Below the pieces are notes generated by a model. The model was not told the origin of the DNA, did not search any database, and saw only the letters and a list, made by a program, of their open reading frames with translations. The position numbers and the translations under genes were made by a program. From NCBI GenBank assembly GCA_038858525.1, contig JAWCFL010000013.1, positions 8,668 to 40,667 on the forward strand: a DNA stretch of 32,000 bases, in the 5' to 3' direction. The number at the start of each line of letters is the position of its first letter. Within the stretch, counting starts at the first letter, position 1. The stretch is from Candidatus Jordarchaeales archaeon. GTDB lineage: Archaea > Asgardarchaeota > Jordiarchaeia > Jordiarchaeales > Freyrarchaeaceae. Positions 20,782 through 27,219 of the stretch are shown here, one piece after another.

Positions 20782-21429
20782 ATGCTTGTGGGAGCCAGGA
20801 TCATTAAGGTTACGACGGAAAACATAGCGGAGGCTGCTAGGGCGGCGGCAGAAGTTATACTTGAGGGGGGAGTGGTCGCCTACCCCACGGACACACTTTA
20901 CGGTCTCGGCGTAAACCCCTTCGTAAGGGAGCATGTTGAAAGGCTCCTCCAAGCGAAGAGAAGACCTGTGGAGAAGGGGATCCCGCTCCTGGTGGGAAGC
21001 ATAAGTGACGCTGAAAGGCTTGCTCATTTCACTCATGAAGCACGACTACTAGCGAAGGCATTTTGGCCCGGCCCATTAACCATAGTGCTCGTTCAGCGTG
21101 AGCCCCTTCCGGACGAGGTTTCAGGCGGTAAAGGTAGTATAGGTGTAAGATTACCAGACCATCCTCTCCCTCAGCATATTGCTAGGATAATTGGTGGAGC
21201 GGTGACTGGGACTAGTGCAAACATCTCTGGGCACGAGCCCGCCAGAACTGCAAGGGAAGTTATTGAGCAGCTTGGAGACAGCGTAGACCTAATTCTTGAC
21301 GGAGGCAAAACAAGGGGGACGCCGTCAACGGTCATCGATATGACTCAAAGCCCGCCGACGATAATTAGAGAAGGAATGATCCCAAAAGAAAAAATATTTA
21401 GGTTGCTGGAGGCAATGGAAGAAAAATAG
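20782..21429 (+). CDS. tsaC: L-threonylcarbamoyladenylate synthase (TsaC/YrdC, no Sua5 C-domain)
   Basis: VVAYPTDTLYGLG, KRRP..KGIP, FWPGPLTIVL, GVRLPDH, GTSANISG, PSTVID. Confidence 0.95.
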   Translation: MLVGARIIKVTTENIAEAARAAAEVILEGGVVAYPTDTLYGLGVNPFVREHVERLLQAKRRPVEKGIPLLVGSISDAERLAHFTHEARLLAKAFWPGPLTIVLVQREPLPDEVSGGKGSIGVRLPDHPLPQHIARIIGGAVTGTSANISGHEPARTAREVIEQLGDSVDLILDGGKTRGTPSTVIDMTQSPPTIIREGMIPKEKIFRLLEAMEEK

Positions 21430-21448
21430 TAGGCGACCACTATTGACG

Positions 21449-22009
21449 TTACGATTCCAACATTAGAAGGGCGCCACGCTCTATGCAGCACTTGGCCAGT
21501 GCTTCAAATTCCCCTCCGGCTTGAGTGGCACTTAGCTCTTTGTCAATTATATTGAAGGCTTTTTTTATCAGTTCGGCTTTCTCGCGGTTTAAGCTGAAAA
21601 CCGTGTCGTCTTCTTCTAAGCCGAGCTTTTCGGCTAAGAAGCGGGCCACCCCTCTAACCTCGCTTTCCTCCTTCCCTACGACTACAAGCCCAAACATTCT
21701 GCATCCACTTTTTAGTCCGAACATTTCCAGCGCCACACTTACCTGCCTCTGCCCTGAGAGCCTAACTAGAACCTCCATTCCCAAGCTTCTCGCTATGCTT
21801 TTTCCAGCCTTAGTAGCCTTAACTGCGTTCAGAACGCTGAAGTAAACATGCTCCCAGGTTGCCACGAGCAGGGCGTCAAAAAGCTGAACGGTTACCCCGA
21901 AGTTTAACTCTGCTTCTCTGGCGAGCTTAAGAGCGGCATTAACGTCAGCAACTCCCCTTAGCCCACATACTCCAACAATCAGTCCACCTGCCAGTTCTGC
22001 AATTCTCAC
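21449..22009 (-). CDS. cgi121: KEOPS complex subunit Cgi121
   Basis: VQLFDALLVATWEHVYFS, IARSLGMEVLVRLSGQRQVSVALEMFGLK, C-terminal ERGALL. GTG 22009 forms a GTGA overlap with the upstream stop. Confidence 0.88.
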   Translation of the reverse strand: MRIAELAGGLIVGVCGLRGVADVNAALKLAREAELNFGVTVQLFDALLVATWEHVYFSVLNAVKATKAGKSIARSLGMEVLVRLSGQRQVSVALEMFGLKSGCRMFGLVVVGKEESEVRGVARFLAEKLGLEEDDTVFSLNREKAELIKKAFNIIDKELSATQAGGEFEALAKCCIERGALLMLES

Positions 22010-22611
22010 CGTGAGCCCCCCCAGACCTTCCTCCACTTTAGGAGGGGGTCTAGGTACTTGAGTGGAATCGGTATGTTGGCGAGAAACTGGCTTATCTCAT
22101 GCTCCTCTTTGCCCTCCTCCTTAAGCCTCCTGTAAACGCTATCGACGCTCTCAAAAAGCTCCCAAGGATAGATGACCCACGCGTCAGTAATCTCACCATA
22201 GTAGTCAGGGGTGACAACGCTGAAGGGTTTAAGATGAAGGGTTGCAACCTTGAGGAGCCCTACGCCTCTCTCCTTAAGGTGCCTCATGACCACACGCAGA
22301 GTGTGCCCGCTGTCAGCAACATCATCACATAGGAGCACGTTCTTTCCGGCAACGTCGACAGAGACAGGCTGAGTGACCACTGGCTCCTCCATTCGCTCAC
22401 CCACATCAGAGTAAAACTCCACAACCACAGAAGCAACTCGCCTAATTGAGAGGAAGTCGGACATCATGCGTGCAACAACCCATCCACCACGCGCGATGCC
22501 GACAATCAAGTCGAACGACAGGCCACTAAGCAGAATCATCTCAGCCACTTTCATTGCCAGAAAGTAAACCTCATCCCAGGTCGGAGCTATGAACTTCAAT
22601 GAAGAAGACAC
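22006..22611 (-). CDS. Purine (hypoxanthine/guanine/xanthine) phosphoribosyltransferase, archaeal type
   Basis: IVGIARGGWVVAR, PRPP-binding loop VLLCDDVADSGHTL, PDYY...AWVIYPWE. Confidence 0.88.
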   Translation of the reverse strand: MSSSLKFIAPTWDEVYFLAMKVAEMILLSGLSFDLIVGIARGGWVVARMMSDFLSIRRVASVVVEFYSDVGERMEEPVVTQPVSVDVAGKNVLLCDDVADSGHTLRVVMRHLKERGVGLLKVATLHLKPFSVVTPDYYGEITDAWVIYPWELFESVDSVYRRLKEEGKEEHEISQFLANIPIPLKYLDPLLKWRKVWGGSR

Positions 22612-22660: not shown

Positions 22661-22701
22661 ACCTTAAAAAACGCGAAAATTAAATGGTGGGCGGGCCAGG
22701 A

Positions 22702-22731
22702 TTCACACGCGCATGCCAAACGCATGTGCGA
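22702..22731 (-). other. tRNA intron 3 (30 nt, T-loop, position 59/60)
   Basis: Outer helix is the T-stem; central helix TTCA/TGTG (one U-U mismatch); bulges AG|T and AA|T; intron helix CGCACATGC/GCATGCGCG (8 of 9 pairs). Confidence 0.85.
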
Positions 22732-22765
22732 CTTGAACCCGGGGCCTCCGGCTCCCGAAGCCGGT

Positions 22766-22795
22766 CATATGCAGTGAAACATCCAGTTTCACCGA
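22766..22795 (-). other. tRNA intron 2 (30 nt, position 25/26)
   Basis: Central helix TATG/CATA is perfect; bulges AC|T and TG|A; 9-bp intron helix CGGTGAAAC/GTTTCACTG; outer helix TGG/CCG. Confidence 0.9.
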
Positions 22796-22806
22796 GTCAT
22801 ACCATG

Positions 22807-22827
22807 TTCCCCGCCTCATATGAAGCT
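22807..22827 (-). other. tRNA intron 1 (21 nt, D-loop, best fit 15/16)
   Basis: Bulge AG|A, central helix GTCT/GGGG (3 of 4 pairs), bulge AA|C, intron helix GCTTC/GAGGC. Relaxed BHB motif. Confidence 0.7.
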
Positions 22828-22875
22828 CTAGACTACCCGCCCTTTCTCCTAAGAGGATAAGCGACCAGAAACACC

Positions 22876-22890
22876 TAATTAAATTTTCTC
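22876..22890 (-). promoter_or_regulatory. BRE/TATA promoter of the tRNA gene
   Basis: GAGAAAA-TTTAATTA ending ~33 nt upstream of tRNA G1. Confidence 0.6.
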
Positions 22891-22964: not shown

Positions 22965-23879
22965 TTACCTGACGAAAATTTCCTTCGTCTTTTTCTCCAT
23001 GTCCTTTAGAACTCCTTTGTCAAGGTTTTTGGGGTTGTAGTACTTGGCTCTTGAGCAGTCAGGAAGCCAGTTGTCTGGCACCTTGAAGGTTTTGCCTCCA
23101 GCCGGTTGAGCTTGAACAGGGACCGACTGGGGAGGCGTGTACTCTTCAGTGTGAGTTGCAGTGTAGCTTCTCGCTGTTGCTGGCGGCATCGTTACAGGGG
23201 ATCGGACCGGGGAATGTGCTGGAGGTGATCTTCCCTCCCTCATGCTTTCCAGCACACTTGAAATTTGAAGGCGTAAGTTAGCCTGCGGCGCTGTGTCAAG
23301 GGCTGATTGAGGCATTGATGCTTCAAGCTCGCTCATCTTTCTTAGGAAGGCGGATGGCCTGACAAATTGCTCTTCAACTATTCCTCCTCTCGGTCTCCCC
23401 TCATTTCCCCCCGCTTCGAAGCTTGGAGCTGCTCTGGGTTGCCTTGCGGCGACCGGAACTGGGGCAGGCGGTGGCGGTCTAACCATCCCGGCTGAAGCGC
23501 GGGTAGGCGTCACGTCTCTCTCGTAGCTTACCGGAGCGGTTCCGTGAAGCGCTCTGCTTGGTAGAGCTGTCTCTTCTATTTCGGCCTCACTTGGCACCGA
23601 TTCCTCTTCGCTGGTTCTCTTTTCGCGGTGTTTCCTGTGACGCTTCGTGTCCTCTTCGCTAATGTGAACTTCGCTTATGTGGGGCCAAGCTTCTATCTTG
23701 TCCAGTCTGCTTTCGAGGTCGGAGACTTTCTGGTTGATGAAGGCTATCTCTTGCCTCATAGCGTCGATCGATGCCTCAAAAAAGGCCACAGCCTTTTCTA
23801 TACTTTCCTCCAAACTTTTAATGGAGTTTCTGATTTCATCAATCTTTTTCAAGAAAGCCCTCTCCCCAAAGTGGCTCAA
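22965..23879 (-). CDS. Hypothetical protein: N-terminal coiled coil, long Pro/Ala/Ser-rich disordered region, short C-terminal motif
   Basis: Heptad pattern IDEIRNSIKSLEESIEK...ISDLESRLDKIE-like; RPPPPAPVPV; C-terminal VPDNWLPDCSRAKYYNP. Canonical promoter directly upstream. Confidence 0.75.
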   Translation of the reverse strand: MSHFGERAFLKKIDEIRNSIKSLEESIEKAVAFFEASIDAMRQEIAFINQKVSDLESRLDKIEAWPHISEVHISEEDTKRHRKHREKRTSEEESVPSEAEIEETALPSRALHGTAPVSYERDVTPTRASAGMVRPPPPAPVPVAARQPRAAPSFEAGGNEGRPRGGIVEEQFVRPSAFLRKMSELEASMPQSALDTAPQANLRLQISSVLESMREGRSPPAHSPVRSPVTMPPATARSYTATHTEEYTPPQSVPVQAQPAGGKTFKVPDNWLPDCSRAKYYNPKNLDKGVLKDMEKKTKEIFVR

Positions 23880-26019: not shown

Positions 26020-27219
26020 TTAGAATAGTTCGTACTGTTTTTCTATGAAGCCTTTCCAGATGCGGGGCATTTCTTCCATTACTTCGCTTGCTATGTTTTC
26101 GGCCGTTGTTTTTATAACGTTGAGCGGGGAGTCGGTGTAGACTTCGATGTTTATCGCTTGGGGTTCGTTTATCGGTTTCCCTATCCTGCTGACGATGTAG
26201 CATGACGCTTGCTCCACGGATTCTTCTTCATTGATGAGCTTCTCAACGATTTTTCTCGCAGCAATATTGTATGTTTTTCCAACGTGGCTGACAGGGTTCT
26301 TTCCTGCTGTCGCTTCGAGCGTCATCGGCCTGTAGGGCGTTATCAGTCCATTTGCCCTATTGCCTCTTCCAACTTGGCCGTCGTCGCCATGCTCCGCCGA
26401 TGTGCCGGTCACCGTGAGATAGTAGACGTTGTTGGCGGGGTCGTCAGCCGTGTTAACGTAGACTTCAACATCCTTCTCAGTTATTTTTGACGCGAGCTTG
26501 TACACTATGTCCTTTATGGTTTCCTTGACGCTCAAGTAGTGGTCTGGGTCCGGTGTTAATCTTGATATTATGGCGCAGGCAACCGTGATGTCTATTCTGT
26601 CTTTCCTCCTAACCCCCATAACCTTGATGTCCTCTCCTATCTCGGGGTGGGCTTTCTTTACTTCAGGCGAGTTAAGCGTTTTCTCAGCCATGTAAACCAG
26701 TTTCTCTGTTTCCGTTAGGGGGGCGAAGGCTACACCGAAGCTTGTGTCGTTCGCCCTTGGAACGTCGACGCCGAGCTCGAATGTTTCCACGAGGTCTACG
26801 CTCCCCGGCTTTATCCTGTAGTCTATGATGATGTCGGTTGTCGGGTCTAGGAAGCGGAAATTCTCCGACAGCCAGTCCCGTGTGGTCTTAACGACGAGCT
26901 TCCCTATTGGCACCCTCTCTCCTTTGGGCAGGTTGAGGGCTGCTCTACCAACCAGAAGCAGGTATATTGGTTCTATGACCTCGCCTCCCCCAAACACGGC
27001 GTTAGACTGCCCTCCTACGAGGACGCACTTGTCGACGTTGTGGTGCAGTATCCTGCCAGTCTTCTCCAAGTAGTACTTGCTCAGCGCCACGCTCAATTCC
27101 TCTGCTGCTCTGTCGCAGATCACATCCGGGTGGCCTTTACCCTTCCTTTCAACCATCTCCATGTCAAGCTGGCATGTAGGGACTCCCAATCCCTTGCAGA
27201 CTTCAACGTTCAAAACCAT
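26020..27219 (-). CDS. mat: S-adenosylmethionine synthetase, archaeal type
   Basis: EMVERKGKGHPDVICD, HHNVDK, ANDTSFGV, GEDIKVMG, GTSAEHGDDGQVGRGNRANGLITPYRPM, GKNPVSHVGKTYN. Confidence 0.97.
   Translation of the reverse strand: MVLNVEVCKGLGVPTCQLDMEMVERKGKGHPDVICDRAAEELSVALSKYYLEKTGRILHHNVDKCVLVGGQSNAVFGGGEVIEPIYLLLVGRAALNLPKGERVPIGKLVVKTTRDWLSENFRFLDPTTDIIIDYRIKPGSVDLVETFELGVDVPRANDTSFGVAFAPLTETEKLVYMAEKTLNSPEVKKAHPEIGEDIKVMGVRRKDRIDITVACAIISRLTPDPDHYLSVKETIKDIVYKLASKITEKDVEVYVNTADDPANNVYYLTVTGTSAEHGDDGQVGRGNRANGLITPYRPMTLEATAGKNPVSHVGKTYNIAARKIVEKLINEEESVEQASCYIVSRIGKPINEPQAINIEVYTDSPLNVIKTTAENIASEVMEEMPRIWKGFIEKQYELF

What the first reader, a model, noticed from the sequence alone, without database searches (positions are those of the whole stretch)
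22685..22842. tRNA-Pro(CGG) split by three non-canonical introns and none at the canonical 37/38 site
The 158-nt locus is half intron: 81 nt of intron against 77 nt of exon. Each intron has bulge-helix-bulge geometry at its junctions, and removing all three gives a complete cloverleaf with CCA and its own BRE/TATA (seen in sequence). From established knowledge, multi-intron tRNAs at D-arm and T-loop positions are characteristic of Thermoproteales-type archaea; as I recall, a three-intron tRNA-Pro is known from Thermofilum. They need a broad-specificity splicing endonuclease. Finding one in a genome that otherwise looks Asgard-like would extend the phenomenon and imply a relaxed-specificity EndA. 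Standard tRNA finders are likely to miss or mis-call this gene.
Basis: partly seen in the sequence, partly recalled or inferred. Interest (0 to 1): 0.85.

Follow-up and report, generated by a model that had tools for sequence, protein, structure and literature searches.

The report
Three-intron proline tRNA gene, Asgard archaeon
This is a real proline tRNA gene of a hot-spring Asgard archaeon (Jordarchaeia) cut into four pieces by three short enzyme-spliced introns; it is well supported, but intron-riddled tRNA genes have already been published for exactly this lineage, so it is a good example of a known oddity.

Summary
On the minus strand (window 22842 to 22685) lies a 158-nt tRNA-Pro(CGG) gene: 77 nt of exon (CCA included) and 81 nt of intron (21 + 30 + 30 nt). 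My junctions are 15/16 (D-loop), 25/26 and 59/60 (T-loop); there is no intron at 37/38. ARAGORN and Rfam miss the gene. After the three inserts are removed, ARAGORN calls tRNA-Pro(CGG).

Seven orthologues from two genera carry the same three inserts. Exons are 92-100% identical, introns 50-86%, and the intron helices show 14 compensatory pair changes. Intron 2 is a perfect bulge-helix-bulge motif, intron 3 is near-perfect, and intron 1 is only relaxed.

The genome is Asgard (Jordarchaeia). It encodes a two-subunit EndA with the Crenarchaea-type specificity loop and its lysine, plus the RtcB ligase. No other tRNA-like CGG anticodon arm was found in the assembly, and CCG makes up 23% of proline codons.

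The claimed novelty does not hold. Heavily and multiply interrupted tRNA genes, and the (αβ)2 EndA with this loop, are already published for Asgard archaea (PMC5829648, PMC11291895, bioRxiv 10.64898/2026.10.13.758758, which names Jordiarchaeaceae). This scan had also already followed up a three-intron tRNA-Ala in the same genome.

The parts
22685..22842 (-). Whole tRNA-Pro(CGG) gene (pre-tRNA body, 158 nt, encoded CCA at 22687-22685)
   Evidence: Sequence. The spliced product is called tRNA-Pro(cgg) by ARAGORN. Full-length orthologues occur in G001-G004 and in two metagenome contigs.
22828..22842 (-). Exon 1 (nt 1-15: acceptor 5' strand, U8, A9, D-stem 5' strand, A14, G15)
   Evidence: Invariant in all 12 Pro homologues. 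Identical to the 5' end of three uninterrupted-D-arm tRNA-Val genes.
22807..22827 (-). Intron 1, 21 nt, D-loop position 15/16; relaxed BHB (HBh' type)
   Evidence: Central helix GTCT/GGGG has 3 of 4 pairs, there is no outer helix, and the inner hairpin is 5-6 bp with 2 compensatory pair changes. The solver recovers the same junction. The same intron, with ends AGC...GCGGRRAA, occurs in three Asgard families.
22796..22806 (-). Exon 2, an 11-nt micro-exon (nt 16-25: rest of D-loop with G18G19, D-stem 3' strand)
   Evidence: Conserved as C[A/T]TGGTATGA[C/T] in all homologues.
22766..22795 (-). Intron 2, 30 nt, position 25/26; canonical hBHBh' motif
   Evidence: Outer helix 3 bp, central helix 4/4, inner helix 9 bp; it is the top-scoring BHB in the locus. 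105/105 cells are paired across 7 orthologues, with 5 compensatory pairs. It lies only 1-2 kcal/mol above the MFE.
22732..22765 (-). Exon 3 (nt 26-59: anticodon arm with CGG at 22757-22755, variable loop, T-stem 5' strand, T-loop to nt 59)
   Evidence: Anticodon arm CCGGC-TTCGGGA-GCCGG. It is the only tRNA-like CGG anticodon arm in the assembly.
22702..22731 (-). Intron 3, 30 nt, T-loop position 59/60; near-canonical BHB
   Evidence: The T-stem serves as a 5-bp outer helix, the central helix is 3/4 (4/4 in G004 after the paired change TTCA/TGTG to TTCG/CGAG), and the inner helix is 3-10 bp. 99/105 cells are paired, with 7 compensatory pairs.
22685..22701 (-). Exon 4 (nt 60-76: T-stem 3' strand, acceptor 3' strand, A73, CCA)
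   Evidence: Invariant in the CGG orthologues.
22876..22887 (-). TATA-like box AAAATTTAATTA with purine-rich stretch upstream (putative promoter, -45 to -34)
   Evidence: Conserved in position and sequence upstream of the orthologues; a similar AAATTATTTAA box precedes the UGG paralogues. Promoter function is inferred.
22666..22684 (-). T-tracts directly after CCA (putative archaeal oligo-T terminator)
   Evidence: Sequence. Terminator function is inferred.

Best explanation
The locus is a functional tRNA-Pro(CGG) gene of a Jordarchaeia (Asgard) archaeon, probably the only one in the genome. It is transcribed from its own TATA-type promoter as a precursor of about 170 nt. Four exons (15, 11, 34 and 17 nt) are separated by three protein-spliced introns at 15/16, 25/26 and 59/60. 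Each exon-intron junction pair can fold into a bulge-helix-bulge motif: canonical for intron 2, near-canonical for intron 3, relaxed for intron 1. The genome's heterotetramer-type (alpha-beta)2 splicing endonuclease EndA, whose catalytic subunit carries the Crenarchaea-type specificity loop with its lysine, cuts inside the two 3-nt bulges. RtcB then joins the exons, and RNase P trims the 5' leader. The product is a 77-nt tRNA with encoded CCA that reads CCG codons.

Shown here: the gene architecture, its conservation, the helix covariation, and the presence of the enzymes. Inferred: actual cleavage, the exact junctions, the promoter and the terminator.
For: - The spliced sequence is a standard tRNA-Pro(cgg) cloverleaf.
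- An independent intron-aware search recovers the same 5'-side junctions and scores the gene at 41.5, above the maximum of 40 in the reversed-genome control.
- Seven orthologues in two genera, plus UGG paralogues, keep inserts at the same sites.
- Exon identity is 0.92-1.00 against intron identity 0.50-0.86.
- Helix pairing is 55/63, 105/105 and 99/105 cells, with 2, 5 and 7 compensatory pairs. Slid-partner controls are far lower.
- tRNA-Val genes share the same acceptor, D and T arms without inserts in the D-loop and T-loop, which gives motif-free support for the boundaries of introns 1 and 3.
- There are two EndA paralogues. The 191-aa one has the catalytic Tyr/His/Lys and matches A. pernix alpha (3P1Z_B) at E=1.6e-48 with no gap across the K44 loop. 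The 198-aa one lacks the His.
- RtcB is present.
- No other tRNA-like CGG anticodon arm was found in the 92.7%-complete assembly. CCG is 22.8% of Pro codons.
- The published lineage-wide pattern agrees.
Against:
- The BHB of intron 1 is only relaxed (3 of 4 central pairs, two of them G-U, no outer helix). Motifs of that quality are common by chance (the preprint also says so).
- The fold with all three BHBs is not the predicted MFE (-58.5 to -63.1 against -76.7 kcal/mol at 37 C). BHB3 alone costs 4-10 kcal/mol because a competing 7-bp helix forms.
- The outer helix of intron 2 competes with the anticodon stem.
- Exact junctions are ambiguous by 1 nt for introns 2 and 3.
- The assembly is about 7% incomplete, so a second copy cannot be strictly excluded.
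Confidence: 0.9

Rival explanations
1. Same gene and same three introns, but one or more splice junctions lie 1 nt away from my BHB-derived ones. For example, intron 3 could lie at 58/59, giving the T-loop TTCAAAT seen in all orthologues, and intron 2 at 26/27, giving U26, as the first reader probably drew them.
For: Under my junctions this genome would have G59 where all six orthologues have A59. A 58/59 cut would restore an identical mature sequence. The UGG paralogues fit 58/59 better: central helix 4/4.
Against: In this genome the 58/59 register gives a much poorer motif (outer helix 2 bp, inner helix 0 bp) than 59/60 (5 bp and 3 bp) (and my reading of it). For intron 2 the 25/26 register is a perfect hBHBh' in all 7 orthologues. 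Position 59 is variable in tRNAs (established knowledge).
Confidence: 0.15
2. The locus is a decaying or silent tRNA relic, and CCG codons are read by tRNA-Pro(UGG) wobble alone.
For: There is no expression data. A U34 tRNA can in principle read CCG (established knowledge). ARAGORN and Rfam do not recognise the locus.
Against: Exons are 92-100% conserved across two genera while the introns diverge. Intron helices keep pairing through compensatory changes. The promoter box and the encoded CCA are conserved. The UGG gene has the same interrupted architecture, so interruption is the norm here, not decay.
Confidence: 0.03
3. The cloverleaf is a chance product of choosing three deletions freely in a GC-rich intergenic stretch, so it is not a real feature.
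For: With three free deletions many sequences can be forced into a cloverleaf. My finder gave scores up to 40 on a reversed-genome control.
Against: The control hits have AT-rich acceptor stems and spans of 300-390 nt. This locus has all the universal tRNA nucleotides and CCA, and it recurs at full length in at least 6 other genomes or contigs with invariant exons.
Confidence: 0.01

Closest known systems
[quoted passage not shown] 2024, PMC11291895; Goswami et al. 2026 preprint, 10.64898/2026.10.13.758758)
   Same: Same lineage. Multiple short (about 20-30 nt) introns at non-canonical D-arm, 25/26 and T-loop sites. D-arm inserts are missed by standard software. BHB motifs sit at the boundaries. 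Two EndA paralogues. Up to five inserts per gene; I saw five in metagenome locus L030.
   Different: Nothing in kind. This is one specific gene, tRNA-Pro(CGG) in a hot-spring Jordarchaeia MAG. I could not check whether this genome and gene are in the preprint's tables, because its supplements are not held.
Multiple-intron tRNA genes of Thermoproteales (Sugahara et al. 2007, 2008; reviewed in PMC4033280 and PMC4090602)
   Same: Up to three BHB introns per tRNA at non-canonical positions, relaxed hBH/HBh' motifs, and an (alpha-beta)2 EndA with the Crenarchaea-specific loop.
   Different: A different phylum (Asgard, not Thermoproteota). According to the preprint, Asgard introns show almost no sign of the intron copying between tRNA types that is seen in Thermoproteales.
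Aeropyrum pernix (alpha-beta)2 splicing endonuclease (PDB 3P1Z, 3AJV) with CSL/L1 loop and Lys44
   Same: The catalytic subunit here aligns at E=1.6e-48 with no gap through the loop. The K44-equivalent lysine and the Tyr/His/Lys triad are conserved. The second paralogue lacks the catalytic His.
   Different: Only sequence-level similarity was tested. The second (structural-type) subunit is closer to M. kandleri and M. jannaschii EndA than to A. pernix beta. Substrate range was not measured.

Membership tests
Archaeal EndA-spliced (bulge-helix-bulge) tRNA intron | Both splice sites lie in 3-nt bulges separated by a 4-bp helix, with flanking helices (hBHBh'), or a recognised relaxed form (HBh' / hBH) | tested here: met
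   Intron 2 is canonical (3/4/9 bp). Intron 3 has h 5 bp, H 3/4 and h' 3 bp. Intron 1 is a relaxed HBh' (H 3/4, h 0, h' 5-6). For intron 1 the motif alone is not above chance.
Archaeal EndA-spliced (bulge-helix-bulge) tRNA intron | Removal of the inserts restores a canonical cloverleaf with universal nucleotides | tested here: met
   ARAGORN calls tRNA-Pro(cgg), 77 nt. My own solver agrees.
Archaeal EndA-spliced (bulge-helix-bulge) tRNA intron | Intron helices are maintained by compensatory substitutions while the exons stay constant | tested here: met
   14 pairs show double-sided changes. 259 of 273 cells are paired, against much lower values in slid controls. Exon identity is 0.92-1.00 against intron identity 0.50-0.86.
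Archaeal EndA-spliced (bulge-helix-bulge) tRNA intron | The host encodes a splicing endonuclease able to cut relaxed motifs ((alpha-beta)2 or epsilon2 type with specificity loop and lysine) and an RtcB ligase | tested here: met
   There are two EndA paralogues, one catalytic and one lacking His. The CSL/L1 loop with the K44 equivalent is present. RtcB matches at E=5e-181. Sequence level only.
Archaeal EndA-spliced (bulge-helix-bulge) tRNA intron | Introns are actually excised from the transcript (spliced mature tRNA, circular or linear intron products) | not testable with these tools
Published multi-intron tRNA genes of Jordiarchaeia / Freyarchaeia | The organism belongs to class Jordarchaeia (Asgard) | tested here: met
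   The catalytic EndA is 91% identical to a Ca. Jordarchaeia MAG (QC4) and 77-85% to other Jordarchaeia/Freyarchaeota MAGs. The kin table places 3.5-3.8 Mb Freyr-type genomes in the same order. Taxonomy was looked up. No marker-gene tree was built.
Published multi-intron tRNA genes of Jordiarchaeia / Freyarchaeia | Most tRNA genes of the genome are interrupted, typically by two or more inserts | tested here: met
   ARAGORN finds 11 'tRNAs', several of them mis-calls, and RF00005 scores 7 hits in a 92.7%-complete genome. My partial survey gave 18 credible genes, all interrupted, 13 with two or more inserts, about 2.5 per gene. Individual solutions were not checked one by one.
Thermoproteales multi-intron tRNA genes | The host is a member of the order Thermoproteales (Thermoproteota) | tested here: not met
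   The nearest relatives are Asgard (Jordarchaeia/Freyarchaeota) MAGs. It works like the Thermoproteales genes but is not one of them.
tRNA-Pro | Anticodon NGG with G37, A73 discriminator, class I cloverleaf | tested here: met
   The anticodon loop is UUCGGGA (C34 G35 G36 G37), A73 is present, and the variable loop is 5 nt.

The most novel reading that the evidence does not exclude
The 15/16 D-loop intron of tRNA-Pro may be one ancient intron rather than a repeated gain. It would have been inherited since before three Asgard families (Jordi-type, Freyr-type and a third family outside the order) diverged. It may be retained because it does something, for instance tying tRNA-Pro supply to the EndA/RtcB machinery, which earlier (unchecked) scan notes say this genome also needs for mRNA introns. 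It has kept the same ends (AGC...GCGGRRAA) and the same imperfect central helix (G10 unpaired) while its hairpin stem covaries freely.
Probability: 0.12. Interest if true: 0.4.

Novelty: new member of a known kind. Interest (0 to 1): 0.2.

Why it matters
For annotation: in this genome the only tRNA-like CGG anticodon arm lies in a gene that ARAGORN and Rfam cannot see. ARAGORN's two 'Pro' calls elsewhere are wrong, so any automated tRNA inventory or codon-capacity inference for this lineage will be misleading.

For biology: it is a clean, well-conserved example, with covariation, of the multi-intron tRNA architecture already reported for Jordiarchaeia, Freyarchaeia and Atabeyarchaeia. It includes an 11-nt micro-exon and introns of visibly different ages. 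The 15/16 intron is shared by three families, the 59/60 site with the Freyr-type family, and 25/26 was found only in the Jordi-type family among the genomes searched. It does not open a new question, but it could serve as a compact substrate for biochemical tests of Asgard EndA specificity.

Tried and rejected
- ARAGORN and Rfam (gathering and E<=10) on the window found no tRNA.
- MAFFT alignments (A1, A2) put the intron helices out of register. I therefore did not use the count of structure pairs. I counted pairs at positions fixed by the exon boundaries, with slid-partner controls.
- The first version of my genome-wide intron-aware finder timed out and was rewritten arm by arm. Its raw candidate stage is unspecific: 67 real against 96 in the reversed-genome control. 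Only hits scoring about 38.5 or more with tRNA-like features were taken as real. It finds only tRNAs with an intact G53-TTCRA and U8, so the survey covers 18 of an expected 46 or so.
- ARAGORN's 'tRNA-Pro(cgg)' on C21 is a mis-call of a class II tRNA, by eye Ser(UGA) with two inserts. Its 'tRNA-Pro(ggg)' on C27 has no tRNA features. Neither is a second Pro(CGG).
- An alternative 3' register for intron 3 (32-nt intron, central helix TTCA/TGAA 4/4) was rejected. It would shorten the T-arm and is not supported in G004.
- Obligatory splicing order ('interlocked' introns) was not supported for this gene. Each BHB costs about the same whether or not the other introns are removed.
- The claim of a three-intron tRNA-Pro in Thermofilum could not be verified. 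PMC1852824 is not held, and the reviews give only 'maximum of three introns' in Thermoproteales.
- The preprint's supplementary tables are not held, so I could not check whether this gene is already listed.

Full report
**What is there**

The plus strand of 22685-22842 begins TGGTGGGCGGG, the reverse complement of a tRNA 3' end, so the gene lies on the minus strand. In that orientation the 158 nt read: acceptor GGGCGGG, U8 A9, D-stem GTCT, A14 G15, a 21-nt insert, CATGGTATGAC, a 30-nt insert, A, the anticodon arm CCGGC-UUCGGGA-GCCGG, AGGCC, the T-stem CCGGG, UUCAAG, a 30-nt insert, U, CCTGG, CCCGCCC, A, CCA.

ARAGORN finds no tRNA in the whole window, and Rfam finds none even at E<=10. With the three inserts deleted, ARAGORN calls a standard 77-nt tRNA-Pro(cgg).

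**Junctions and BHB geometry**

I used the standard geometry. The 5' exon ends with four central-helix nucleotides plus two bulge nucleotides. The intron ends with the four complementary nucleotides plus two bulge nucleotides. This rests on established knowledge and is consistent with the anticodon-intron pair rule.

I scanned every site pair in the locus, numbering positions in the precursor:

| Site pair | Intron | Outer helix | Central helix | Inner helix | Position |
|---|---|---|---|---|---|
| 47/77 | 2 | 3 bp | 4/4 Watson-Crick | 9 bp | 25/26 |
| 111/141 | 3 | 5 bp (T-stem) | 3/4 (one U-U) | 3 bp | 59/60 |
| 15/36 | 1 | none | 3/4 (two G-U) | 5-6 bp hairpin | 15/16 |

- The 47/77 pair is the best BHB in the locus.
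- Intron 1 is a relaxed HBh' form.
- Many unrelated site pairs in the same 158 nt score as well as introns 1 and 3, so BHB-likeness alone does not establish those two. The 2026 preprint makes the same point about the relaxed class.
- A separate cloverleaf search that allows BHB jumps recovered exactly the 15/16 and 25/26 junctions.

**Comparative evidence, which carries the case**

- A DNA search of 40 relatives found full-length matches in all three same-genus genomes (84-90% identity) and in the one other genus of the family (74%). It also found a 71%-identical paralogue in the same genome.
- A metagenome scan added two more variants.
- All seven CGG orthologues have inserts at the same three sites.
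- The deduced mature tRNAs are identical within the genus except at nt 59, and 92-95% identical between the genera. The introns are only 50-86% identical.
- I counted base pairs at positions fixed by the exon boundaries, not by pairing:

| Intron | Cells paired | Slid-partner controls | Pairs changed on both sides |
|---|---|---|---|
| 1 | 55/63 | 19-41 of 63 | 2 |
| 2 | 105/105 | 32-43 of 105 | 5 |
| 3 | 99/105 | 11-63 of 105 | 7 |

- Intron 3's central helix changes from TTCA/TGTG to TTCG/CGAG in the second genus.
- Three tRNA-Val genes of the same genome share Pro's acceptor, D-stem and T-arm sequences but have uninterrupted D-loops and T-loops. This gives motif-free support for the boundaries of introns 1 and 3.
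- The paralogue is tRNA-Pro(UGG) with three inserts at the same sites; its T-loop intron fits 58/59 better.

**Is it the working gene?**

- BLAST of the mature sequence and a regular-expression scan for any 5-bp stem around a YU-CGG-RN loop found no other tRNA-like CGG anticodon arm in the 92.7%-complete assembly.
- ARAGORN's 'Pro(cgg)' on C21 is a mis-called class II tRNA. Its 'Pro(ggg)' on C27 has no tRNA features.
- CCG is 22.8% of proline codons in 715 long ORFs.
- An AAAATTTAATTA box at -45 to -34 is conserved upstream of the orthologues, and T-tracts follow the CCA.

**Host and machinery**

- The genome is 2.09 Mb in 63 contigs, 47.4% G+C and 92.7% complete.
- It encodes two EndA paralogues.
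- The 191-aa paralogue has both EndA domains and the Tyr/His/Lys catalytic residues. It aligns to the Aeropyrum pernix catalytic alpha subunit (3P1Z_B, E=1.6e-48) without a gap through the Crenarchaea-specific loop, and it keeps the lysine equivalent to K44. K44's role comes from PMC5829648.
- The 198-aa paralogue lacks the catalytic His.
- RtcB is present.
- The catalytic EndA's nearest relatives are 'Candidatus Jordarchaeia' MAGs (91%) and Freyarchaeota.

**Genome-wide context**

- ARAGORN with introns allowed reports 11 tRNAs, at least three of them wrong. The Rfam tRNA model scores 7.
- My partial intron-aware survey needs an intact G53-TTCRA and U8. It found 18 credible genes, all interrupted, 13 with two or more inserts, about 2.5 inserts per gene. 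Single solutions were not individually verified, and control hits reach a score of 40.
- This matches the published 2.0-2.4 intervening sequences per gene for this family.

**Age of the three introns**

- A Freyr-type complete genome (G006) has a tRNA-Pro(UGG) with inserts at 15/16 and 59/60. It has none at 25/26 and a different one near the variable/T-stem junction.
- A pattern search of 400 Asgard genomes found the 15/16 intron with the same ends (AGC...GCGGRRAA) in three families only: 4/4, 5/6 and 3/4 genomes, with 0 hits for the backwards control. The pattern includes exon sequence, so no match does not mean absence.
- In the third family, the one gene I read through (G026) has this as its only insert.
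- One metagenome tRNA-Pro(UGG) (L030) appears to have five inserts.

**Folding**

- The structure with all three BHBs is not the MFE: -58.5 to -63.1 against -76.7 kcal/mol.
- Forcing each BHB singly costs 1-2 kcal/mol (intron 2), 1.5-6 (intron 1) and 4-10 (intron 3) at 75 and 37 C.
- These costs change little when the other introns are removed, so I see no support for an obligatory splicing order.

**Novelty**

- The (alpha-beta)2 EndA with the L1 loop in Asgard archaea was reported in 2018 (PMC5829648).
- 92-95% intron-containing tRNA genes, mostly at non-canonical sites and often with several introns, were reported for Freyarchaeia and Atabeyarchaeia in 2024 (PMC11291895).
- An October 2026 preprint analyses 90 Asgard genomes including Jordiarchaeaceae. 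It reports up to five inserts per gene, frequent D-arm inserts missed by tRNAscan-SE, BHB enrichment and two EndA paralogues.
- This scan had already followed up a three-intron tRNA-Ala in the same genome with the same verdict.
- The finding is therefore a solid new example of a known kind, not an extension of the phenomenon.

Noticed in passing
G000:C1:76214-76357 (+) = L023:1501-1644: Paralogous tRNA-Pro(UGG) gene with three introns at the same sites (18, 21 and 31 nt). The outer helix of its intron 2 BHB is 8 bp and includes the last 3 nt of intron 1. In this genome the gene ends ATTA, so it has no encoded CCA, whereas its orthologues end ACCA.
   Followed up: partly
L030:622-807 (+) (metagenome contig Ga0116200_10026611): A tRNA-Pro(UGG) gene of 186 nt that appears to carry five inserts: 15/16, 25/26, one inside the anticodon loop, one after the anticodon stem, and the T-loop. 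This matches the published maximum of five.
   Followed up: partly
G000:C3:22477-22579 (+): Initiator-type tRNA-Met (acceptor AGCGGGG) with a 28-nt T-loop intron. The intron contains a near copy of the 3' acceptor strand (…CCGCCCCGCT…), and ARAGORN uses that copy to call a wrong, truncated 75-nt intronless gene.
   Followed up: partly
G000:C1:25772-25864 (-), C25:8386-8477 (+), C3:53645-53750 (+): Three tRNA-Val genes (GAC, UAC, CAC) share the acceptor stem, D-stem and T-arm sequences of the tRNA-Pro genes almost exactly. Val(CAC) carries a 30-nt intron at 25/26, the same site as Pro intron 2, and ARAGORN mis-calls it as Leu(cag).
   Followed up: partly
G000:C21:30825-30950 (-) and C27:20967-21041 (-): ARAGORN's 'tRNA-Pro(cgg)' on C21 is by eye a class II tRNA, probably Ser(UGA), with two non-canonical inserts. 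Its 'tRNA-Pro(ggg)' on C27 has no tRNA features. I located no tRNA-Pro(GGG) gene.
   Followed up: partly
L045:1501-1545, L046:1501-1543, L047:1501-1545: A third Asgard family outside the order (f15: G042, G036, G026) has the same 15/16 tRNA-Pro D-loop intron with conserved ends but a longer hairpin (29-31 nt) whose stem covaries. I did not identify the family.
   Followed up: partly
window 20782-22611: Genes next to the tRNA: Sua5/TsaC-family (20782-21429, +) and the KEOPS subunit Cgi121 (21449-22036, -), both linked to tRNA t6A modification, and a phosphoribosyltransferase (22006-22611, -). Archaeal SAM synthetase lies at 26020-27219 (-).
   Followed up: no
window 22965-23879 (-): A 304-aa ORF immediately upstream of the tRNA promoter has no Pfam match.
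   Followed up: no
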